Virus record (IMG/VR): IMGVR_UViG_3300029643_000041
DNA: 35,620 nucleotides
Direction: 5' to 3' (one strand)
Origin: a virus
Lineage: Duplodnaviria > Heunggongvirae > Uroviricota > Caudoviricetes
The translations under genes and the position numbers were made by a program. Positions 1 through 34,964 of this stretch are shown piece after piece. Below the pieces are notes generated by a model. That model ran no database searches. It was given only the letters and a program-made list of their open reading frames with translations, and had not been told where the DNA came from. Each line of letters starts with the position of its first letter. Within the stretch, counting starts at the first letter, position 1.

Positions 1-55
1 GGCATCAGTCTTAATTAGTGCCACTGCTTTTCTTTGATGTCCCCATTTTGTGGAG

Positions 56-99
56 CCCATCAACCCCGCCATTTCGGTTCAAGGTTGATGGGTTTTTTG
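56..99 (+). terminator. Host-side hairpin plus T-run overlapping attL
   Basis: cccatcaacc / ggttgatggg 10-bp stem with about 17-nt loop, followed by tttttt; the 3' arm and the T-run lie in the att core. Confidence 0.45.
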
Positions 100-113
100 T
101 TGCCTGAAATTTA
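88..113. repeat. attL core, 26-bp direct repeat atgggttttttgttgcctgaaattta
   Basis: Exact copy of the sequence at 34939-34964; lies just outside ogr, where P2/186 phages carry att. Confidence 0.75.
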
Positions 114-5144: not shown

Positions 5145-5573
5145 CGTTGGCCCCGCTTCTCTGAATCGCTTTATACCGCCATTCCAGCACTTCGGTCAGC
5201 GGCATAACGTCAGTAACGGATGGCGGCCAGTGAAAAATGGTGGCGATATCTGCCACCAGATCGTCAACCGTCAGGCTGTCGGTAAACCGGCAAGTACCGA
5301 CTTCTTCAACAAAAAAGTGACAACCTCAACCGACATAGCGGTGAGATCTGCCGGGTCCATCTCTGCAATTTCCTGTGCGGTCAGTGCCGGACTGGAGATG
5401 CGGGGGATCACGGTCATCATCGCGTTTACATCCATATCCATAATGGCCTGCAGGCGTGTACCGCGCAGCGCACCGGACTGCGGTTTACGCAGCACAATTT
5501 CGGTGATTTCTGTTTTACCGCGCTTGATGGGGGTATCCAGTTGAATGGTCTTTTCAGTCTGCTTATCGCTCAT
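5137..5573 (-). CDS. E': E+E' fusion product made by a programmed -1 frameshift at T TTT TTG
   Basis: Slippery heptamer in the E frame at 5316..5310 (minus strand); the -1 frame then stays open (VEEVGTCRFTDSLTVDDLVADIATIFHWPPSVTDVMPLTEVLEWRYKAIQRSGANDE) to a TGA at 5139-5137, overlapping the T start, as in P2. Confidence 0.6.
5271..5573 (-). CDS. E: Tail assembly chaperone E
   Basis: 100 aa ORF ending ...VTFLLKKSVLAGLPTA; contains the T TTT TTG slippery heptamer near its 3' end. Confidence 0.85.
   Translation of the reverse strand: MSDKQTEKTIQLDTPIKRGKTEITEIVLRKPQSGALRGTRLQAIMDMDVNAMMTVIPRISSPALTAQEIAEMDPADLTAMSVEVVTFLLKKSVLAGLPTA
5310..5316 (-). promoter_or_regulatory. -1 ribosomal frameshift slippery site T TTT TTG
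   Basis: Read directly from the minus strand in the E reading frame. Confidence 0.6.
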
Positions 5574-14829: not shown

Positions 14830-15203
14830 GCTGCTACCTGTTGCGCCATCTGATTACGGGTGATCCAGAAGGCAATAACGGTCAGTAGATAAAAGACCAG
14901 GGTAATAGCCCCCCCCGTCCAGGCGAGACTTACAACAATCAGCAATCGCATCACCCAACTGGTAAATACGTTTTCTTTTCGGGTAATTGTCTTCAGCAAA
15001 GATGCCCTTAACTCCTGCCAGAGCGGGCCATTCTTAATTAACGCAGCCAGTGCTACCGGAATTACCGCCCATGTCAGCAAACAGGCTACCCAAACGCCGG
15101 ACGCTGCCAGTACCGGAAAAATCCCCTGCGGATACACCATTGCTGCGATTAACAGCGCCATCCATAACATCAGAAACAGTCCGCTGATTAATTTCTTTTT
15201 CAT
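14826..15203 (-). CDS. lysA: Lysis timing membrane protein LysA
   Basis: Multi-transmembrane protein; start placed at the ATG preceded by AGGGAG (MKKKLISG...); the track ORF extends 24 codons upstream into K. Confidence 0.65.
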   Translation of the reverse strand: MKKKLISGLFLMLWMALLIAAMVYPQGIFPVLAASGVWVACLLTWAVIPVALAALIKNGPLWQELRASLLKTITRKENVFTSWVMRLLIVVSLAWTGGAITLVFYLLTVIAFWITRNQMAQQVAA

Positions 15204-21151: not shown

Positions 21152-22179
21152 TGGGAAAGAGTAAAAAAAAACGCGCTGCGGCGACGAACCAGATCCAGCA
21201 TAAAAGCCAAGCTTCAGCCGAAGCATTCAGCTTCGGTGATCCCATTCCAGTACTTGACCGCCGCGAACTGCTGGACTATGTGGAATGCGTACAGACAGAT
21301 CGCTGGTATGAGCCTCCCGTCAGCTTTGACGGACTGGCGCGCACCTTCCGCGCTGCCGTGCATCACAGTTCACCAATTGCAGTGAAATGCAACATTCTGA
21401 CCAGCACCTACATCCCTCACCCGCTTCTCAGCCAGCAGGCTTTTTCGCGTTTTGTGCTGGACTATCTGGTATTTGGTAACGCCTACTTGGAGAAACGCAC
21501 GAACCGATTCGGTGAAGTTATCGCCCTTGAGCCTGCGCTGGCAAAATACACCCGACGCGGGTTAGACCTGGATACCTACTGGTTTGTACAATACGGTATG
21601 ACAACCCAGCCGTATCAGTTCGCGAAAGGCAGCATTTTTCATCTGATGGAACCGGACATCAACCAGGAGATCTACGGCCTGCCCGGTTATCTTTCTGCCA
21701 TTCCGTCAGCCCTGCTCAACGAGTCCGCCACGCTGTTCCGCCGCAAGTATTACATTAACGGCAGTCATGCAGGCTTCATCATGTATATGACTGACGCCGC
21801 GCAGAACCAGGAGGATGTGAACAACCTCCGCAACGCGATGAAAAGCGCCAAAGGACCGGGCAACTTCCGTAACTTGTTTATGTACTCGCCTAACGGCAAA
21901 AAGGACGGGCTTCAGATCATCCCGTTGTCAGAAGTTGCAGCGAAGGATGAATTTCTGAATATCAAGAACGTGAGCCGGGACGACATGATGGCGGCACACC
22001 GTGTGCCGCCGCAAATGATGGGGATTATGCCGAATAATGTTGGGGGGTTTGGGGATGTGGAGAAAGCTAGTAAGGTTTTTGTGACAAATGAATTAGTACC
22101 TCTACAAAAAAAAATCCATGAATTTAATCAGTGGATAGGGATGCATATTATCAATTTCTCAGAATATAATATAGATTAA
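21148..22179 (+). CDS. Q: Portal protein Q
   Basis: 343 aa (P2 gpQ is 344 aa); start overlaps the P stop. Confidence 0.9.
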   Translation: MMGKSKKKRAAATNQIQHKSQASAEAFSFGDPIPVLDRRELLDYVECVQTDRWYEPPVSFDGLARTFRAAVHHSSPIAVKCNILTSTYIPHPLLSQQAFSRFVLDYLVFGNAYLEKRTNRFGEVIALEPALAKYTRRGLDLDTYWFVQYGMTTQPYQFAKGSIFHLMEPDINQEIYGLPGYLSAIPSALLNESATLFRRKYYINGSHAGFIMYMTDAAQNQEDVNNLRNAMKSAKGPGNFRNLFMYSPNGKKDGLQIIPLSEVAAKDEFLNIKNVSRDDMMAAHRVPPQMMGIMPNNVGGFGDVEKASKVFVTNELVPLQKKIHEFNQWIGMHIINFSEYNID

Positions 22180-22202
22180 TTATATATACATCCCTCTAAC
22201 CT

Positions 22203-22886
22203 TTAAGGCATTCTATTCTCAAAAACATGCTTTATCGCAGTGGTAAAGCATCTATCTTTTACATTCTTTTTAAACTCATCAAAGACCATAGATCTAACAT
22301 CTTCAATTTCACATCCTGATTCAATAAGCTGAGATGCACATCCGACCAGTTCCTTTATTAATGTCATGCTTAATTCTATTGCACGTCTTCTTTCCGCCTT
22401 GACTCCTCCTGAGGACGGGTTTAAGTTAAATACTCTTAACGTAACCTCTGCCATTTTGTGTTCTTTCTCATTCAAGCCTTCTCTAATATGAACATCACCA
22501 TTTTCCAAAAAATGGAAAAAAACATCTGGATTTTGTCTATCAGCTTTAATTAAATCATCATCGTTATATTTTTGCTTATCCTTATAAAACCCACACCTTT
22601 GCGGCTCACCACATGAGCCAAACAAATTAGACCACTCGAAAGTTAAATTTTTGTAATAACTTTTCCTGTAAAAATGTTCAATATGCCTCTCAACTTTATT
22701 TTTGCCACCACTTTTATGATGCTCTATTTTTTTCTCGCAATAAGCACATAATTTACCTTGCATTTTTATTATTTCTTCCCATATTTCTTTTTTATCATTT
22801 GATGATAGGGAATTCCAATCATCCCTCCTATAGTCAAATTTATTAAGAACGGAAGGCCCTGGCATTTGCCTAGATAGATATTTCAT
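22203..22886 (-). CDS. HNH endonuclease, Septu PtuB-like retron effector component
   Basis: 227 aa; CAYCEKKIEHH...VERHIEHFYRK...CGEPQRC HNH/zinc motif; start overlaps the ATPase stop (ATGA); strongly AT-rich. Confidence 0.8.
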   Translation of the reverse strand: MKYLSRQMPGPSVLNKFDYRRDDWNSLSSNDKKEIWEEIIKMQGKLCAYCEKKIEHHKSGGKNKVERHIEHFYRKSYYKNLTFEWSNLFGSCGEPQRCGFYKDKQKYNDDDLIKADRQNPDVFFHFLENGDVHIREGLNEKEHKMAEVTLRVFNLNPSSGGVKAERRRAIELSMTLIKELVGCASQLIESGCEIEDVRSMVFDEFKKNVKDRCFTTAIKHVFENRMP

Positions 22887-24517
22887 TTTACATCCTTACT
22901 TCCAGAAAAGTGCTGATTTATCTTATTTTTGAACTCCAAAACAGATATAAGATCATCACACTCTTGAACTAAAGGATGGTCTAATCCGAAATGTTTAATA
23001 ACTTTTTCTCTTAACAAAAGAGCCTCGTCACTGCTATAACGATTAAGCTCAACCAATTTTTTATATTCTTCAAGCCAACCATTTTCTTTAGTAGAGGGTA
23101 TAGGATCAGTTCTCATTCCATATAAAAGTGCATCCTGATTACTAACACCTTTTATTTGATAGTCGGGGTGAGACACTATCAAATCATTAACACCATCTAC
23201 TTCCACTTCCTGTAGAATACGCACTGAACGAGAGCTAACAGTGGATAAAACCTGTGGGCTATGGGTAGTAATTACAAATTGAACATTTGGGAATGTAGAT
23301 GTCAAACGCTCAATAATTGTCTGTTGCCATTGCGGATGCAAATGCAAATCAATTTCATCAATTAAAACAATCCCATATCCCAATAGAGGATTAGATAAAT
23401 TTGGATTAAGTAAAATTAAACGTCGAGCCAAATCACCAACTAAAGTAAATATAGTTTTCTCACCTTGAGACAACTGTTGAATATCTAATTCAACCTCTCC
23501 TTTTTTAAGGATAATCTTATAATCATCATCACCATAAACAAGCTTAATCCACTGAAATTCAGGCAAGAACTTTAGAATGGTATTTATAACACTATCATAA
23601 AGTGATACTGCATTATTAAACTTATGTTCTCCTGATTGCAGAGATTTCATGTAGTTCAATTTTTCTTTAAGCGAAAGCTCTAAACCTTTTATAACTGTTG
23701 AATCAATATTATCAATCGCAGATAGTTGAGTTAATGTTGCTTTCAAACTCTGAATATCTGAAAATAACGCATTGATTGTCGTTTGTGACTCACTCAATTT
23801 CTCTTGTGAAGCTCTGTTATGAAGAAATACAAGCCATTGAAAAAAATCGGTAAAATCATTTCTGTCAAACTCGATTTCATCATACACATCGAATTTTGAC
23901 CATACAGTTTTAGTTTTAGCATTTTTTCTTTTCCTATCAACCCCACCGCCTATATAAGAACGCGCAATAGAATAATATGCCATCAAAGGCAAGCTTGCAT
24001 TATCAACATATTTATTCACAAGTCTATAAATACTTGCAAGTTTTTTTATCTCCAACAATTCATTATTTCTAGAATAATATGCCCCCTCTTTCGCTTTAGT
24101 AATCAAAATACTGGTATTAAAGTCCTTGAGTTTTATATTTGCATCAATTGATGCATACTCAACATCAACAGAGTTATTAACTTCATGGCTTTTAATATAA
24201 GTACCAGGCTTACTCTCCTTTTCAATATTTGATCTCAACCAACTCAAAACAATTGCTATTGCATCCAAAATAGTGCTTTTACCGAATCCGTTATCCCCGA
24301 CAAAAACAGTCAAATCATCTTCTAAAGAAATCTGTAGTTCTCTTATCCGTTTAAAATCATGTATACCTATTTTATTTAAATGAAACTTACTCTCATTTAA
24401 AGTAGATATTAGCTTTTGAAGCTCAACAGACTCCTTCAAATAATCCTCGTTTATCACATGTGATTCCAACTCTAAAAAATCAACATAGCAAGTCTCTAAA
24501 TTCATTTTATTTATCAT
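22883..24517 (-). CDS. P-loop ATPase, Septu PtuA-like retron effector component
   Basis: 544 aa; Walker A VFVGDNGFGKST, Walker B VLIDEIDLHLHP, then ITTHSP; translationally coupled to the RT upstream and the HNH downstream. Confidence 0.8.
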   Translation of the reverse strand: MINKMNLETCYVDFLELESHVINEDYLKESVELQKLISTLNESKFHLNKIGIHDFKRIRELQISLEDDLTVFVGDNGFGKSTILDAIAIVLSWLRSNIEKESKPGTYIKSHEVNNSVDVEYASIDANIKLKDFNTSILITKAKEGAYYSRNNELLEIKKLASIYRLVNKYVDNASLPLMAYYSIARSYIGGGVDRKRKNAKTKTVWSKFDVYDEIEFDRNDFTDFFQWLVFLHNRASQEKLSESQTTINALFSDIQSLKATLTQLSAIDNIDSTVIKGLELSLKEKLNYMKSLQSGEHKFNNAVSLYDSVINTILKFLPEFQWIKLVYGDDDYKIILKKGEVELDIQQLSQGEKTIFTLVGDLARRLILLNPNLSNPLLGYGIVLIDEIDLHLHPQWQQTIIERLTSTFPNVQFVITTHSPQVLSTVSSRSVRILQEVEVDGVNDLIVSHPDYQIKGVSNQDALLYGMRTDPIPSTKENGWLEEYKKLVELNRYSSDEALLLREKVIKHFGLDHPLVQECDDLISVLEFKNKINQHFSGSKDVK

Positions 24518-25452
24518 TATTTGTTTCCTTCCATCAGGAACTTAGTTATTAACTCACAACCATATTTTTTTTGTAACCTTAATAAAAAATCACCCTCCAA
24601 ATAATTTGCAAACGCAATCATCCCTTTGGTTTTATTTATTTCTTCGGAAGATAAGAGTCCCAAAGAATATTTATGAATCTTTGCAAACAGCATCCTTTTA
24701 CGATCGCGACCAATTGATAAATTGCCCTGAGGTGTAAGTGTTACACCAGTCACGTGCCGATTATGAGCCATCGATGTAAAAATTGTTTTAGATTCATTGA
24801 TTGATAGACCGGGAACATGGAGCGACAACATTTTTTTTACCACCTTAGGAACCCTGCACAATATATCCTTAATATTAGTTGAAAAAGTTATATCATCTGC
24901 ATACCTTGAATAAGTGATACCATTGTTACGGCACCAATCATCAAGACTCTTGTCAAAGTCATACATAACAAAATTACTAATAAATGGTGAGCTTGGCGCC
25001 CCTACACTTAATATCAACGTTGTACTTCTCTTTTTTCCCGGACGCCAAAAAAGCAAATTACGTAGGGTGTTCTCATCAAATGAATCCAATTTCAGCCCTG
25101 TGTTCTCAAGTTTCGAGAAAAATATATCAGGTTTAATTTTGTTAAAGAAGTTCTGAAAATCCATTTTAAGAATATAATTATTATCTTTATGCAACAATGC
25201 ATTATCTTTAATACTTTTTTTATATTCATATGCCATTGCCTTATGATGAACAGGCAGCTTTGGCTGTAGCAAAGATACTATAAATCTCTGTACGTTTTTT
25301 AGTTCCTTTGTCGGCTGAGCTATCACCCGAAAACCTGCGCCACGTTTAGGAATATAATAAACTTTATATTTTTTGGGGGCCTCATTTAAAAGTAATTGGA
25401 AAGCTAATCTATTATAATTAAACTTACTGATAATTTTAGAAGTTAGTTGCAT
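24517..25452 (-). CDS. Retron-type reverse transcriptase
   Basis: 311 aa; ILKMDFQNFF, SVGAPSSPFISNF, YSRYADDITF (YxDD box) and the retron-typical VTG triplet (HNRHVTGVTL); AGAGGGG Shine-Dalgarno before the ATG; preceded by a structured non-coding region. Confidence 0.85.
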   Translation of the reverse strand: MQLTSKIISKFNYNRLAFQLLLNEAPKKYKVYYIPKRGAGFRVIAQPTKELKNVQRFIVSLLQPKLPVHHKAMAYEYKKSIKDNALLHKDNNYILKMDFQNFFNKIKPDIFFSKLENTGLKLDSFDENTLRNLLFWRPGKKRSTTLILSVGAPSSPFISNFVMYDFDKSLDDWCRNNGITYSRYADDITFSTNIKDILCRVPKVVKKMLSLHVPGLSINESKTIFTSMAHNRHVTGVTLTPQGNLSIGRDRKRMLFAKIHKYSLGLLSSEEINKTKGMIAFANYLEGDFLLRLQKKYGCELITKFLMEGNK

Positions 25453-25700
25453 ATAACCCCTCTTAAAACCAAAGCGCCATGCAACTTTACATAGCGCTTT
25501 GACTCTTCACTAAAGACAGCGAAAGACACAGATTTCTCCTTCGCATATCTGCCCCGGGCAGGGATGCGAAGGAGAAATCTGTGTCTTTCGCAACCCTAAA
25601 CCGGACAATAAATTTAAGCCTGGCTAATCACCCGGCTGGAACCAATGTTCCTACACTAAAGAGCGTAATGATTTTAATGAACAAATAGATATAAGGCAAG
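25453..25700 (-). ncRNA. Candidate retron msr-msd non-coding RNA (limits approximate)
   Basis: Non-coding stretch directly 5' of the RT on the same strand; 28-bp perfect inverted repeat (arms 25519-25546 and 25564-25591, 17-nt loop) consistent with an msd stem; smaller hairpins at 25638-25651 and 25461-25490. Flanking a1/a2 repeats were not resolved by eye. Confidence 0.5.
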
Positions 25701-25704
25701 GCGC

Positions 25705-25735
25705 GCGCTCGTATCCCCGCCACGCCTGCCCGCTT
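25705..25735. other. cos-like GC-rich motif (candidate cohesive-end site)
   Basis: Minus-strand ggcgtggcggggatacgag matches 14 of 19 positions of the P2 cohesive end GGCGAGGCGGGGAAAGCAC as I recall it; lies between the Tum-module terminator and the retron. Confidence 0.3.
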
Positions 25736-25770
25736 TATGTAGTGGTTTTCATGCACCTGCATGATCTACG

Positions 25771-25797
25771 CAAAAGCCCGCCAGTTCTGGCGGGCCT
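25771..25797 (-). terminator. Rho-independent terminator closing the SOS/Tum-like operon
   Basis: Minus strand gcccgccag-aa-ctggcgggc followed by ttttg. Confidence 0.6.
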
Positions 25798-25930
25798 TAG
25801 CAAAAACGATCCTCAAACGATCATGCGATCTCATGCGGCATAGACATGCACTACAGAGCTAACGCCTCGCAAGGGCTCGTTGTTCAACCTTGCTGACGCC
25901 AGAAACAAGTTCAGACGCCAGCAACGTTTC

Positions 25931-32454: not shown

Positions 32455-32495
32455 CATCATGAAATCGTCAAGATAAAAGTTCACTTGGAGTGACC

Positions 32496-33065
32496 ATGAA
32501 TTTGGAGAAAGGCGGACGAGGCGCTATAGAGCGCATGGTAGAAGCTTATGGATTCAAAACTCGACAGGCGTTGTGCGATCATTTAGGAATCTCTAAAAGT
32601 ACACTCGCTACACGCTACATGCGTGACTCATTCCCAGCAGAATGGGTAATCCAGTGCGCCCTTGAAACGGGCACCTCGCTTAATTGGCTCACAACTGGAC
32701 ATGGTTCAAAGCAAACTTCAGGTAATACAAATACGATGGAAGTTGCTAAGTATGTATTATCTGATGGTGCCTTGCGTGAAGACGGTTTTTATATTTTTGA
32801 TAAGGGATTTCTACCCTCTACGTTTAAAAAACCTTTTGTCATCACAGATAACAATTCTGAATTTATTTGTGATAAAGAATTTGATGATATACGTGATGGT
32901 AAATGGGTAATAAGTATTGATGGCGAAATAACAATCCGCGACATTACTCGTTTACCCGGTGGAAGAATCTTCGTTGAAGGTGGAAACAGATCCTTCGAGT
33001 GCAAGATAGAAGATGTTGAAATAATTGGAAAAATTATAAGTTTAACAATTAAGTACGTTAGGTAA
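32496..33065 (+). CDS. cI: CI immunity repressor (186 CI-like)
   Basis: 189 aa from the ATG preceded by GGAG; N-terminal HTH (ERMVEAYGFKTRQALCDHLGISKSTLATRY), position upstream of int. Confidence 0.8.
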   Translation: MNLEKGGRGAIERMVEAYGFKTRQALCDHLGISKSTLATRYMRDSFPAEWVIQCALETGTSLNWLTTGHGSKQTSGNTNTMEVAKYVLSDGALREDGFYIFDKGFLPSTFKKPFVITDNNSEFICDKEFDDIRDGKWVISIDGEITIRDITRLPGGRIFVEGGNRSFECKIEDVEIIGKIISLTIKYVR

Positions 33066-33272: not shown

Positions 33273-33458
33273 TTTTTGCTTTTATATCTGCGCCTAATAT
33301 AACAATGAGCCGCAGGCTAACCGCAAAAGTCACATACTCACATAGCAAAAAATAGCCAACTTCATTATGGCTTCAGTGAGATGTATGGTCGCAAGATTTC
33401 ATACATTGACACTGGTTATACATACAGTAAAAATGCTCTCTATTGGAGGGCATTTTTT

Positions 33459-34490
33459 ATGGCAGTACGAAAACTCACCACAGGAAAATGGCTTTGCGAA
33501 TGTTACCCCGCCGGACGTAGTGGGCGTCGTGTGCGTAAACAATTCGCCACCAAAGGCGAAGCACTGGCTTTTGAGCGTCACACGATGGAAGAAACCGAAG
33601 CAAAGCCCTGGCTGGGCGAATCAGTAGATCGTCGAACCCTGAAAGACGTGGTTGAGCTATGGTTCAAACTACATGGTAAATCTCTGACTGCTGGGCAGCA
33701 TGTCTATGACAAATTGCTGCTGATGGTTGACGCTCTGGGCAATCCCCTTGCAACCGATCTCACATCTAAAATGTTTGCCCATTATCGAGATAAACGACTG
33801 ACAGGTGAGATCTACTTCAGCGAGAAATGGAAGAAAGGGGCCAGCCCGGTCACCATTAACCTGGAGCAAAGCTATCTAAGTAGTGTTTTTAGCGAACTAT
33901 CCCGCCTGGGCGAATGGTCGTATCCAAACCCACTGGAGAACATGCGAAAATTCACCATCGCAGAAAAAGAGATGGCATGGCTTACCCATGAGCAGATTGT
34001 TGAACTGCTGGATGATTGCAAACGTCAGGACCCAATTCTGGCACTGGTAGTCAAGATATGCTTAAGCACAGGCGCACGCTGGCGAGAAGCAATAAACCTT
34101 ACCCGCTCACAGGTGACCAAATACCGAATTACCTTTGTCAGAACGAAGGGGAAGAAAAACAGAAGCATCCCTATCAGTAAAGAGCTTTACGAAGAGATCA
34201 TGGCGCTCGATGGGTTCAATTTCTTCACAGACTGCTATTTTCAATTTTTATCCGTGATGGAAAAAACGTCTATCGTGCTCCCTCGCGGTCAACTGACACA
34301 CGTTCTGCGCCATACGTTTGCGGCGCATTTTATGATGTCGGGTGGAAATATCCTTGCTTTGCAAAAAATCCTCGGACATCACGACATAAAAATGACTATG
34401 CGTTACGCACATCTAGCACCGGATCACCTGGAAACTGCATTACGGTTTAATCCGCTGGCAACACTACCAACATCAATAGCAAGTTTTTGA
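33459..34490 (+). CDS. int: Tyrosine integrase
   Basis: Start at MAVRKLTTGKW (P2 Int begins MAIKKL); C-terminal HVLRHTFAAHFMMSGGNILALQKILGHHDIKMTMRYAHL catalytic region. The track ORF begins 26 codons upstream. Confidence 0.9.
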   Translation: MAVRKLTTGKWLCECYPAGRSGRRVRKQFATKGEALAFERHTMEETEAKPWLGESVDRRTLKDVVELWFKLHGKSLTAGQHVYDKLLLMVDALGNPLATDLTSKMFAHYRDKRLTGEIYFSEKWKKGASPVTINLEQSYLSSVFSELSRLGEWSYPNPLENMRKFTIAEKEMAWLTHEQIVELLDDCKRQDPILALVVKICLSTGARWREAINLTRSQVTKYRITFVRTKGKKNRSIPISKELYEEIMALDGFNFFTDCYFQFLSVMEKTSIVLPRGQLTHVLRHTFAAHFMMSGGNILALQKILGHHDIKMTMRYAHLAPDHLETALRFNPLATLPTSIASF

Positions 34491-34938: not shown

Positions 34939-34964
34939 ATGGGTTTTTTGTTGCCTGAAATTTA
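34939..34964. repeat. attR core, 26-bp direct repeat
   Basis: Exact copy of 88-113; lies downstream of int and is followed 5 bp later by the stop codon of a host TetR-family gene. Confidence 0.75.

What the first reader, a model, noticed from the sequence alone, without database searches (positions are those of the whole stretch)
25453..25700. Perfect 28-bp hairpin upstream of the RT as candidate msd; a1/a2 repeats unresolved
Arms 25519-25546 and 25564-25591 are exact reverse complements with a 17-nt loop (atctgccccgggcaggg). That predicts an msDNA of roughly 75-85 nt. Further 5' in the transcript are smaller hairpins (ggaaccaatgttcc at 25638-25651) that could be msr stem-loops, and a hairpin with a G-U pair lies just before the RT Shine-Dalgarno (25461-25490). 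I could not find convincing a1/a2 inverted repeats by eye; only direct repeats (cactaaaga at about 25505 and 25654) are obvious, so the msr boundaries are uncertain.
Basis: seen in the sequence. Interest (0 to 1): 0.6.

Follow-up and report, generated by a model that had tools for sequence, protein, structure and literature searches.

The report
Known retron msd hairpin (FORC 82)

Summary
The perfect 28-bp hairpin (25519-25546 / 25564-25591) is real. It is the longest inverted repeat in the window and folds far better than shuffled sequence (z = -16.6). It is the msd stem of a type I-A retron on the minus strand: ncRNA, RT (24517-25452), PtuA-like ATPase (22883-24517) and PtuB-like HNH nuclease (22203-22886).

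[quoted passage not shown] 2025). The ATPase differs from FORC_082's at two residues. The ncRNA is base-for-base identical to FORC_082's. That paper shows a ~90-nt msDNA, a ~40-nt retained RNA, and phage-nuclease-triggered tRNA-Ser cleavage.

The unresolved a1/a2 repeats are an 8-bp stem with two G·U pairs: a2 at 25664-25657 (GCUCUUUA), a1 at 25509-25502 (UGAAGAGU), priming G at 25656. Covariation across 14 lineages supports all four helices. By homology to Ec78, the msDNA is plus strand 25511-25606: 96 nt, or 92 nt after debranching, not 75-85 nt.

The packaging site (cos) is a separate element at 25726-25708. The hairpin just before the RT lies at 25470-25501, outside the ncRNA, and looks like a terminator or attenuator.

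Verdict: already known, low interest.

The parts
25671..25699 (-). Predicted sigma-70 promoter of the retron ncRNA: -35 TTGCCT (25699-25694), 17-nt spacer, -10 TAAAAT (25676-25671)
   Evidence: Consensus scan. The same geometry occurs in all 14 lineages: a TANNNT hexamer ending 6-8 nt before a2, with TTGNNN 17 nt upstream. Inferred, not mapped experimentally.
25502..25664 (-). Unprocessed retron ncRNA (msr-msd), 163 nt from a2 to a1
   Evidence: Full-length match to covariance model R1 at 176.9 bits. MFE fold and RNAalifold agree. Identical in E. coli FORC_082. Ec78 numbering transferred.
25657..25664 (-). a2 inverted repeat (GCUCUUUA), 5' end of the ncRNA
   Evidence: Pairs with 25509-25502 in the MFE fold and the consensus fold. 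Helix 1 is 98.2% paired in 14 lineages, with compensatory changes at 2 of 8 pairs.
25656..25656 (-). Priming (branching) guanosine, in the invariant UUUAG motif
   Evidence: Unpaired G at the top of the a2/a1 stem and invariant in 14 lineages. Matches 'G8 preceded by A7' in PMC12475279 and 'initiating G downstream of the conserved UUA' in PMC12819146.
25638..25651 (-). msr stem-loop I (GGAAC AUUG GUUCC)
   Evidence: Compensatory changes at 4 of 5 pairs.
25617..25637 (-). msr stem-loop II (AGCC G GGU ... GCC A GGCU), the RT-bound handle retained after processing in Ec78
   Evidence: 100% paired in 14 lineages, with one compensatory pair. Corresponds to Ec78 rU27-rU48.
25598..25616 (-). Conserved linker (UAAAUUUAUU) plus the termination/template-end region (GUCCGGUUU). 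G25606 is the predicted last templated base.
   Evidence: Homology to Ec78 rC49-rU58 and rG59-rU67, validated on L018. The motif AAYUUAUUG is nearly invariant. Inferred by homology.
25511..25606 (+). Predicted msDNA (plus-strand sequence): 96 nt as synthesised, 92 nt if the first 4 nt are removed on debranching as in Ec78
   Evidence: Transfer of the Ec78 ends (template A135 to G59). Agrees with the ~90-nt msDNA measured for the FORC 82 retron. The exact ends are inferred.
25519..25591 (-). msd hairpin: 28 perfect bp plus a 6-bp apical extension. This is the finding itself.
   Evidence: Compensatory changes at 22 of 28 pairs across 14 lineages.
25502..25509 (-). a1 inverted repeat (UGAAGAGU), 3' end of the ncRNA
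25470..25501 (-). Post-a1 hairpin (14 bp, 4-nt loop) followed by GUUUUAAG. Terminator/attenuator-like and outside the ncRNA proper.
   Evidence: A hairpin of unrelated sequence sits at this position in 13 of 14 lineages (12 significant in the 45-nt shuffle test), median z = -4.5 against 0.1 for control windows. Also part of the Rfam STnc400 model. Function inferred.
24517..25452 (-). Retron reverse transcriptase, 311 aa (NALLH at 84, YADD at 184, VTG at 234). Shine-Dalgarno AGAGGGG at 25464-25458.
   Evidence: Pfam RVT_1. PADLOC RT_I-A, E = 4.9e-131. 311/311 identical to PDB 9n69_E. Motifs.
22883..24517 (-). SMC/ABC-type ATPase effector (PtuA-like), 544 aa
   Evidence: PADLOC PtuA 1.3e-193 and ATPase_I-A 8.1e-152. 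PDB 9n69_A at 1189 bits. Two substitutions against FORC_082.
22203..22886 (-). HNH nuclease effector (PtuB-like), 227 aa
   Evidence: PADLOC PtuB 1.5e-117 and HNH_I-A 3.7e-57. PDB 9n69_F full length. Identical to FORC_082.

Best explanation
The region 25664-25502 on the minus strand encodes the msr-msd non-coding RNA of the type I-A retron first characterised in E. coli FORC 82. The proposed sequence of events is below, with each step marked as shown or inferred.

1. Transcription. It starts at about G25664 from a sigma-70 promoter (inferred).
2. Folding. The RNA ends pair as an 8-bp a2/a1 stem, which places the 2'-OH of G25656 next to the first template base A25511 (inferred from the fold, covariation and the published G8).
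3. Reverse transcription. The RT copies the msd region, which contains the 28+6-bp hairpin, up to about G25606. This gives a 96-nt single-stranded DNA that refolds into the same hairpin. Its 3' end stays hybridised to the RNA segment GUCCGGUUU (ends inferred from Ec78; a ~90-nt DNA was shown experimentally for the identical ncRNA).
4. Processing. RNase H removes the template. The DNA is probably debranched and loses 4 nt, leaving a ~40-nt RNA (shown for Ec78; consistent with the gel sizes for FORC 82).
5. Assembly. The DNA hairpin is a 'harpoon' scaffold. Four SMC-type ATPase subunits clasp it and hold the HNH nuclease inactive (shown by cryo-EM, PDB 9N69).
6. Activation. Phage flap exonucleases from T3 and T5 degrade the msDNA. 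This releases or activates the HNH nuclease, which cleaves tRNA-Ser and arrests translation (shown in PMC12475279).

The cassette is AT-rich cargo in the cos-proximal defence hotspot of a complete P2-like prophage.
For: - Identity to the solved system: RT 311/311 and HNH 227/227 identical to PDB 9n69, ATPase near-identical.
- The ncRNA from a2 to a1 is identical to strain FORC_082. The whole 3598-nt cassette differs at 7 positions.
- Published experiments on that retron: ~90-nt msDNA, ~40-nt RNA, priming G8, pairing of the 5' and 3' ends, phage defence, the nuclease trigger and tRNA-Ser cleavage.
- PADLOC best hits are RT_I-A, PtuA/ATPase_I-A and PtuB/HNH_I-A.
- Rfam msr covers 25600-25664 (E = 1.3e-6) and STnc400 covers 25461-25598 (E = 2e-13).
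- The MFE fold from the predicted start gives the a2/a1 stem with G25656 unpaired, and RNAalifold gives the same.
- The covariance model finds the ncRNA upstream of the RT in every locus that has upstream sequence.
- Covariation: 97.3% of cells paired against about 44% when partners are slid; 29 of 48 pairs show compensatory changes.
- The Ec78 numbering reproduces every published landmark on L018 and transfers to the window without indels up to G59.
- A conserved promoter geometry is present in 14 of 14 lineages.
Against: - No transcript or msDNA data exist for this window itself.
- The exact 5' and 3' ends of the msDNA, and debranching, are transferred from Ec78, whose RT is only 47% identical. 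I could not read the nucleic-acid chains of 9N69.
- The Rfam matches are below gathering thresholds (45.9 against 52 bits; 71.4 against 80 bits).
- The covariation alignment was fitted to the model structure, which favours pairing.
- The a2/a1 stem is mostly invariant, so only 2 of its 8 pairs give compensatory evidence.
- The window's ATPase carries E156 and I157 where FORC_082 has G and V, with unknown effect.
Confidence: 0.95

Rival explanations
1. The hairpin is part of the phage DNA-packaging (cos) site rather than of the retron.
For: The retron lies directly next to cos: the cohesive-end sequence is only 62 nt upstream of the ncRNA start. P2-type cos function needs some flanking sequence.
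Against: - cos is a distinct element at 25726-25708, identical to the annotated cos of phage SEN8.
- Backbone homology shared by more than 1200 P2-like prophages stops at about 25695. Those phages lack the hairpin.
- The hairpin travels with the RT in non-phage contexts, on a Klebsiella plasmid and in chromosomal islands, and shows RNA-type covariation.
Confidence: 0.01
2. The hairpin is an independent small regulatory RNA (the Rfam STnc400 family) or a transcription terminator, unrelated to reverse transcription.
For: The best Rfam hit over the hairpin is the 'sRNA' family STnc400. STnc400 was described as a stable Salmonella transcript of ~55 nt, with a fainter ~190-nt band taken as a precursor.
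Against: - STnc400 maps to the STM3844/STM3845 intergenic region. From my own knowledge, not tested here, that is directly upstream of the St85/Sen2 retron genes, so it is itself a retron ncRNA.
- The real terminator of the upstream phage operon is at 25801-25770 (repeat I3).
- A 34-bp stem is not a terminator-type structure.
- The identical sequence yields msDNA experimentally.
Confidence: 0.02
3. The retron in this window is inactive: a decayed copy whose ncRNA no longer functions.
For: Decayed relatives exist. E. coli E2348/69 has lost exactly the msd hairpin and most of the RT. The window's ATPase differs from the tested one at residues 156 and 157.
Against: - All three ORFs are intact.
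- The catalytic motifs are present: YADD, NAXXH, VTG, HNH H71 and ATPase D387.
- The ncRNA is identical to the functional one.
- The only nearby nucleotide changes are one base before a2 and a pair-preserving U-A to U.G change in the post-a1 hairpin.
Confidence: 0.05

Closest known systems
E. coli FORC 82 type I-A retron (George et al. 2025, Nat Commun; PDB 9N69/9N6B/9N6C)
   Same: RT and HNH are 100% identical. The ATPase differs from FORC_082's at two residues (156 and 157). The ncRNA from a2 to a1 is identical. The operon order and the P2-like prophage context are the same in strain FORC_082.
   Different: Seven nucleotide differences in 3598 nt. These include C25665 (T in FORC_082, one base before a2) and G25478 (A in FORC_082, in the post-a1 hairpin). 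The window comes from a closely related strain, not FORC_082 itself.
Retron Ec78 / Retron-Eco7 (type I-A; PMC12819146, PMC12804668, PMC12673091)
   Same: Same architecture: an 8-nt IRa2, the UUAG priming motif, two msr stem-loops, a conserved linker, the msd hairpin, an 8-nt IRa1, then RT-PtuA-PtuB. The msDNA hairpin acts as a spine that sequesters PtuAB. The numbering aligns position for position up to G59.
   Different: RT is 47%, PtuA 38% and PtuB 43% identical. The msd stem has 22 bp in Ec78 (77 msDNA positions in the paper's numbering) against 28+6 bp here (96-nt msDNA). Ec78 depletes tRNA-Tyr and is evaded by T5 tRNAs. FORC 82 targets tRNA-Ser and is not evaded.
Retron St85 / Sen2 of Salmonella and Rfam STnc400 (RF02058)
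   Same: RefSeq names the RT 'retron St85 family'. The STnc400 model aligns to the msd hairpin, the a1 region and the downstream hairpin at 71.4 bits.
   Different: From my own knowledge, St85 is a type II-A retron with a different effector (RcaT); this was not tested here. The score is below the family's gathering threshold of 80 bits.
Retron Ec86 / Eco1 (type II-A3)
   Same: The general retron mechanism: an a1/a2 stem, 2'-OH priming from a conserved G, and an msd hairpin.
   Different: The RT is only distantly related (E = 3.6e-27). The Ec86 msDNA stays branched and the RT dimerises, and the effector is an NAD+-hydrolysing toxin.
Cos-proximal defence hotspot of P2-like phages (Rousset et al. 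2022, PMC9122126)
   Same: The cassette sits between cos/gpA and the portal gene gpQ. This is exactly the hotspot described, which is reported to contain retrons.
   Different: Nothing substantive. This is one more occupant of the hotspot.

Membership tests
Retron (general) | RT of the retron clade with NAXXH, YADD and VTG motifs | tested here: met
   NALLH at residue 84, YADD at 184, VTG at 234. Pfam RVT_1. All top PADLOC hits are retron RT models.
Retron (general) | ncRNA flanked by inverted repeats a1/a2 that pair | tested here: met
   An 8-bp stem, 25664-25657 with 25509-25502, in the MFE and consensus folds. It is 98.2% paired in 14 lineages, with 2 compensatory pairs.
Retron (general) | Conserved priming guanosine immediately 3' of a2 | tested here: met
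   G25656 lies in the invariant UUUAG motif and is unpaired at the stem top. It matches the published G8.
Retron (general) | Long msd stem-loop between msr and a1, directly upstream of the RT on the same strand | tested here: met
   Hairpin at 25591-25519, with 22 of 28 pairs covarying. The RT starts at 25452.
Retron (general) | Production of msDNA by the RT | not testable with these tools
   Shown experimentally for the identical ncRNA and RT of strain FORC_082 (PMC12475279), not for this window.
Type I-A retron (Mestre et al. 2020) | RT followed by an ABC/SMC-type ATPase and an HNH nuclease (PtuA/PtuB-like) | tested here: met
   PADLOC RT_I-A 4.9e-131, ATPase_I-A 8.1e-152 and HNH_I-A 3.7e-57. 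The ORFs overlap in operon order. Classification.
Type I-A retron (Mestre et al. 2020) | IA1/IIA1-type ncRNA structure | tested here: met
   The covariance model built from the window and its relatives finds full-length matches in Ec78-type, Vibrio cholerae and other type I-A-like loci.
FORC 82 retron (PDB 9N69) | Sequence identity of the proteins and the ncRNA | tested here: met
   RT 311/311, HNH 227/227, ATPase 542/544, ncRNA 163/163.
Retron Ec78 (Eco7) itself | Near-identity to Ec78 proteins and its 144-nt ncRNA | tested here: not met
   RT 47%, PtuA 38%, PtuB 43% identical. The ncRNA is 163 nt with a different msd stem. Same family, different retron, despite the RefSeq label 'retron Ec78 ... 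PtuB'.
Rfam msr (RF00170) / STnc400 (RF02058) | Score at or above the curated gathering threshold | tested here: not met
   45.9 against 52 bits and 71.4 against 80 bits. Neither appears in the gathering-mode scan. The thresholds miss a genuine, experimentally validated retron.
P2-type cos site | The hairpin lies within the conserved cos element | tested here: not met
   cos is at 25726-25708. Backbone conservation ends at about 25695. The hairpin starts 117 nt from the cohesive end.

The most novel reading that the evidence does not exclude
The type I-A retron ncRNA may be a self-contained transcription unit. Its promoter would place +1 at the first base of a2. A position-conserved but sequence-unconserved hairpin immediately after a1, often with a U-run, would act as a leaky intrinsic terminator or attenuator. 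That would set a high ratio of ncRNA to RT-PtuAB and so keep the toxic effectors saturated with msDNA. In P2-like phages, the -35 box of that promoter is supplied by the conserved cos flank, so exchangeable cargo is plugged into a backbone promoter element. None of the retron papers I read describes this.
Probability: 0.4. Interest if true: 0.3.

Novelty: already known. Interest (0 to 1): 0.1.

Why it matters
The finding adds no new biology. The retron, its ncRNA, its msDNA, its structure and its trigger were published in 2025, and the prophage hotspot that carries it was described in 2022.

Its practical value is for annotation:
- RefSeq annotates none of these ncRNAs. In one relative it places a pseudo-CDS and an over-extended RT start over the ncRNA region.
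- Rfam's curated thresholds miss this validated retron.

The exact window coordinates given here for a2, the priming G, the msd template, a1, the promoter and the downstream hairpin could serve annotation or retron engineering.

The modest new observations are the conserved promoter geometry and the post-a1 terminator-like hairpin across type I-A retrons. They suggest a testable way in which ncRNA and effector stoichiometry could be controlled.

Tried and rejected
- Rfam in gathering mode found nothing in the region. Only the permissive E-value mode showed the msr and STnc400 matches. The microRNA-family matches there are generic long-hairpin artefacts.
- Folding 25700-25453, which includes untranscribed upstream sequence, gave a misleading closing stem between promoter-region A/U runs and the a1 area. 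Folding from the predicted start gave the true a2/a1 stem.
- A literal search for the P2 cohesive-end sequence, recalled from memory, with up to 3 mismatches found nothing. The prophage has a different cos type, which I located through phage records that end at cos.
- No supplementary files of PMC12475279 are held, and the nucleic-acid chains of PDB 9N69 cannot be searched. The published ncRNA/msDNA sequence therefore could not be compared directly. I used the strain FORC_082 genome instead.
- A megablast of the cassette against the phage collection found no phage record carrying this retron, only the shared backbone.
- The terminator scan did not flag the post-a1 hairpin, so its terminator role remains inferential.
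Only Y-U-N-A-G is conserved at the 3' copy across the family.
- Reverse-strand covariance-model hits over the hairpin are palindrome echoes.
- The weak model hit at 14833-14943 (12.8 bits, E = 0.47) is noise.

Full report
**Observation.**
The minus strand of 25453-25700 was read directly. Arms 25519-25546 and 25564-25591 are exact reverse complements. The repeat finder extends them to 36-nt arms at 94% complementarity. No other short-range inverted repeat in the 35.6-kb window comes close; the next is a 19-nt palindrome at 79%.

As single-stranded DNA, the segment 25506-25602 folds into 28 bp plus a 6-bp apical stem at -41.1 kcal/mol. Shuffles give -9.0 +/- 1.9 kcal/mol (z = -16.6). As RNA, the 248-nt region has z = -11.2. 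So the '17-nt loop' is really a further stem with a 3-nt loop.

The small hairpin at 25638-25651 and the direct repeat at 25505-25516 / 25651-25662 are as described. The hairpin before the RT start is at 25470-25501, not 25461-25490.

**What surrounds it.**
Three overlapping ORFs lie downstream on the minus strand:
- 24517-25452, 311 aa: a retron reverse transcriptase (Pfam RVT_1; PADLOC RT_I-A, E = 4.9e-131).
- 22883-24517, 544 aa: a PtuA-type SMC/ABC ATPase (PADLOC 1.3e-193; ATPase_I-A 8.1e-152).
- 22203-22886, 227 aa: a PtuB-type HNH nuclease (1.5e-117; HNH_I-A 3.7e-57).

The RT carries NALLH, YADD and VTG. Upstream are a DinI-like gene and the P2-type replication gene A.

**Identity.**
The RT is 311/311 identical to PDB 9n69 chain E. 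The HNH matches chain F over its full length, and the ATPase matches chain A at 1189 bits. These entries belong to the type I-A retron of E. coli FORC 82 (George et al. 2025, PMC12475279).

Compared with the FORC_082 chromosome, the 3598-nt cassette differs at 7 positions. RT and HNH are identical. At ATPase residues 156 and 157 the window has E and I where FORC_082 has G and V. The ncRNA from a2 to a1 is base-for-base identical.

Only 8 of 5426 complete E. coli genomes carry this or a related ncRNA at this site. The flanking 100 nt of P2 backbone occur in 1277 genomes.

**What is already shown experimentally for that retron.**
- The purified complex contains a ~90-nt msDNA and a ~40-nt ncRNA.
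- The priming guanosine is G8, preceded by A7.
- The msDNA is a 'harpoon' clasped by four ATPase subunits that hold one HNH.
- The retron defends against T3 and T5.
- Phage flap exonucleases cause msDNA degradation, and the HNH then cleaves tRNA-Ser.

**Resolving a1/a2 and the boundaries.**
- *Promoter.* A sigma-70-like promoter lies at -35 TTGCCT (25699-25694) and -10 TAAAAT (25676-25671), which predicts a start at about 25664. In all 14 lineages examined, a TANNNT hexamer ends 6-8 nt before a2, with TTGNNN exactly 17 nt upstream.
- *Single-sequence fold.* Folding from 25664 gives an 8-bp closing stem, GCUCUUUA (25664-25657) with UGAAGAGU (25509-25502). It has two G.U pairs, and G25656 is unpaired at its top. 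With C25663 as position 1, G25656 is G8 and A25657 is A7, as published.
- *Consensus fold.* RNAalifold on five divergent E. coli and Klebsiella sequences returns the same stem. Its outer pair varies G-C / A-U / G.U.
- *Covariance model.* The model built from that alignment finds a full-length ncRNA just upstream of the RT in Vibrio, Shewanella, Cellvibrio, Methylococcaceae and other loci whose RTs are 45-50% identical.
- *Pair counts.* On the 14-sequence alignment, 97.3% of cells are paired, against 41-46% when partners are slid by 1-3 columns. No shuffle reached the observed covariation. Compensatory changes occur at 2 of 8 a2/a1 pairs, 4 of 5 pairs in stem-loop I, 1 of 7 in stem-loop II and 22 of 28 msd pairs.
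- *Caveats.* The alignment was fitted to the model, and most a2/a1 columns are invariant.

**Ends of the msDNA.**
The Ec78 paper (PMC12819146) gives these landmarks:
- a 144-nt ncRNA with 8-nt IRa1 and IRa2;
- retained RNA rU27-rU67;
- a template-primer duplex rG59-rU67 with dA69-dC77;
- debranching with loss of dT1-dA4.

On the Ec78-type locus L018, a2 to a1 is exactly 144 nt and every landmark fits. The window aligns without indels up to G59. This gives:
- first template base A25511, last G25606;
- msDNA = plus strand 25511-25606, 96 nt, or 92 nt after loss of 4 nt, in agreement with the ~90 nt measured;
- retained RNA at about 25638-25598, 41 nt, in agreement with ~40 nt.

These ends are inferred by homology.

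**Rfam.**
In E-value mode, msr (RF00170) aligns to 25600-25664 at 45.9 bits against a gathering score of 52. STnc400 (RF02058) aligns to 25461-25598 at 71.4 bits against 80. Neither passes in gathering mode.

STnc400 was defined in Salmonella in the STM3844/STM3845 intergenic region. It showed a ~55-nt stable form and a fainter ~190-nt band that the authors took for a precursor. From my own knowledge, that site is immediately upstream of the St85/Sen2 retron genes, so this family is effectively a retron msd model.

**The packaging-site alternative.**
Linear records of phages SEN8 and EtG end exactly at window 25727. SEN8 positions 1-19, annotated 'putative cos site', are identical to window 25726-25708 on the minus strand (GGCGTGGCGGGGATACGAG).

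Backbone similarity to other P2-like phages stops at about 25695 on this side and at about 22112-22140 on the portal side. The cassette between those points is 30-36% GC, against 52-60% for the backbone. The hairpin therefore lies in the cargo, 117 nt from the cohesive end.

It also accompanies the RT on a Klebsiella plasmid and in chromosomal islands. Rousset et al. 2022 already describe this cos-proximal gpA-gpQ region as a defence hotspot that contains retrons.

**Relation to other retrons.**
The window retron is not Ec78. Identities are RT 47%, PtuA 38% and PtuB 43%. Two other divergent type I-A retrons occupy the same P2 hotspot, in strains N10 and AREA_497, with RT identities of 61% and 56%.

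**Side observations.**
A strong hairpin of unrelated sequence starts within 6 nt after a1 in 12 lineages and about 17 nt after it in L015, so 13 of 14 in all. In the 45-nt shuffle test, 12 of 14 are significant. L015's hairpin starts too late for that window, and L006 has none. Median z is -4.5, against 0.1 for control windows inside the RT gene. Several of these hairpins are followed by U-runs. The window's hairpin is 25501-25470, followed by GUUUUAAG and then the RT Shine-Dalgarno. I read it as a leaky terminator or attenuator. That is an inference: the simple terminator scan did not flag it.

The window also contains the whole prophage. Perfect 26-nt direct repeats lie at 88-113 and 34939-34964, and the left one overlaps the 3' end of rybB. 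An integrase and a CI-type repressor sit at the right end.

**Verdict.**
The element is an already characterised retron in an already described prophage hotspot, so novelty and interest are low.

Noticed in passing
window 25470-25501 (-); also L002, L003, L004, L008-L012, L014, L015, L017, L018 just 3' of a1: A strong hairpin of unrelated sequence starts within 6 nt after a1 in 12 type I-A lineages and about 17 nt after it in L015. In a 45-nt shuffle test, 12 of 14 are significant (median z = -4.5 against 0.1 for controls). It is often followed by a U-run. It looks like a leaky terminator or attenuator between the ncRNA and the RT-effector genes, and the retron papers I read do not describe it.
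   Followed up: partly
window 25671-25699 (-) and the 55 nt upstream of a2 in 13 other loci: A TANNNT -10 box ends 6-8 nt before a2, with a TTGNNN -35 box exactly 17 nt upstream, in 14 of 14 lineages. The ncRNA 5' end therefore appears to be the transcription start. In the P2-hotspot retrons, the -35 box lies in the conserved cos flank and the -10 box in the cargo.
   Followed up: partly
window 25708-25726 (-): The cos cohesive-end sequence GGCGTGGCGGGGATACGAG is identical to the annotated cos of Salmonella phage SEN8. The retron ncRNA starts only 62 nt from the cohesive end, so the retron is the first cargo at the left end of the packaged genome.
   Followed up: yes
window 88-113 and 34939-34964; rybB at 23-101 (+): Perfect 26-nt direct repeats (ATGGGTTTTTTGTTGCCTGAAATTTA) bound a complete ~34.9-kb P2-like prophage. 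The left copy overlaps the 3' end (terminator) of the host sRNA gene rybB. The integrase is at 33381-34490 and a CI-type repressor at 32490-33065.
   Followed up: partly
L016:4000-4088 (E. coli E2348/69, NC_011601.1 ~1701529-1701617): A decayed Ec78-type retron. The msd hairpin is deleted precisely between GCGAAAG and UAAAGAG, leaving msr and a1. The RT is truncated to a 133-aa ORF and PtuAB are absent.
   Followed up: partly
L002:4967-5149 and L002:5301 (E. coli N10, NZ_CM165902.1): Apparent RefSeq annotation problems. A 'hypothetical protein' pseudo-CDS just overlaps the 5' end of the ncRNA. The RT start is placed at 5301, directly after a1, so it runs through the post-a1 hairpin (327 aa against 311). 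No ncRNA is annotated in any of the genomes inspected.
   Followed up: no
window 22112-22203: Similarity to other P2-like phages ends about 40-70 nt before the portal gene stop at 22179, so the portal C-terminus is encoded in the AT-rich variable zone. Only 23 nt separate the convergent stop codons of the portal gene and PtuB.
   Followed up: no
window 24049-24051 (ATPase residues 156-157): The window's ATPase has E156 and I157 where FORC_082 has G and V. The sites lie a few residues from N151 and N152, which the paper lists among msDNA-contacting residues. Strain 98208 shares E156 with the window and differs only at I157V.
   Followed up: no
window 25770-25801 (-): An intrinsic-terminator-like hairpin (GCCCGCCAG...CUGGCGGGC followed by UUUUG) closes the upstream phage operon (gene A, DinI-like gene) just before cos. 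It is separate from the retron transcript.
   Followed up: no
window 25461-25664 (-): Rfam's curated thresholds miss this experimentally validated retron (msr 45.9 bits against 52; STnc400 71.4 against 80). STnc400, filed as an sRNA, appears to be the msd and downstream hairpin of St85-family retrons.
   Followed up: partly
window 25502-25664 vs L002:5136-5299: The ncRNA outside the msd stem is much better conserved than the proteins. For the window against strain N10, the ncRNA is ~85% identical in nucleotides while the RT is 61% and PtuA 56% identical in amino acids. The msd stem sequence diverges with compensation.
   Followed up: no
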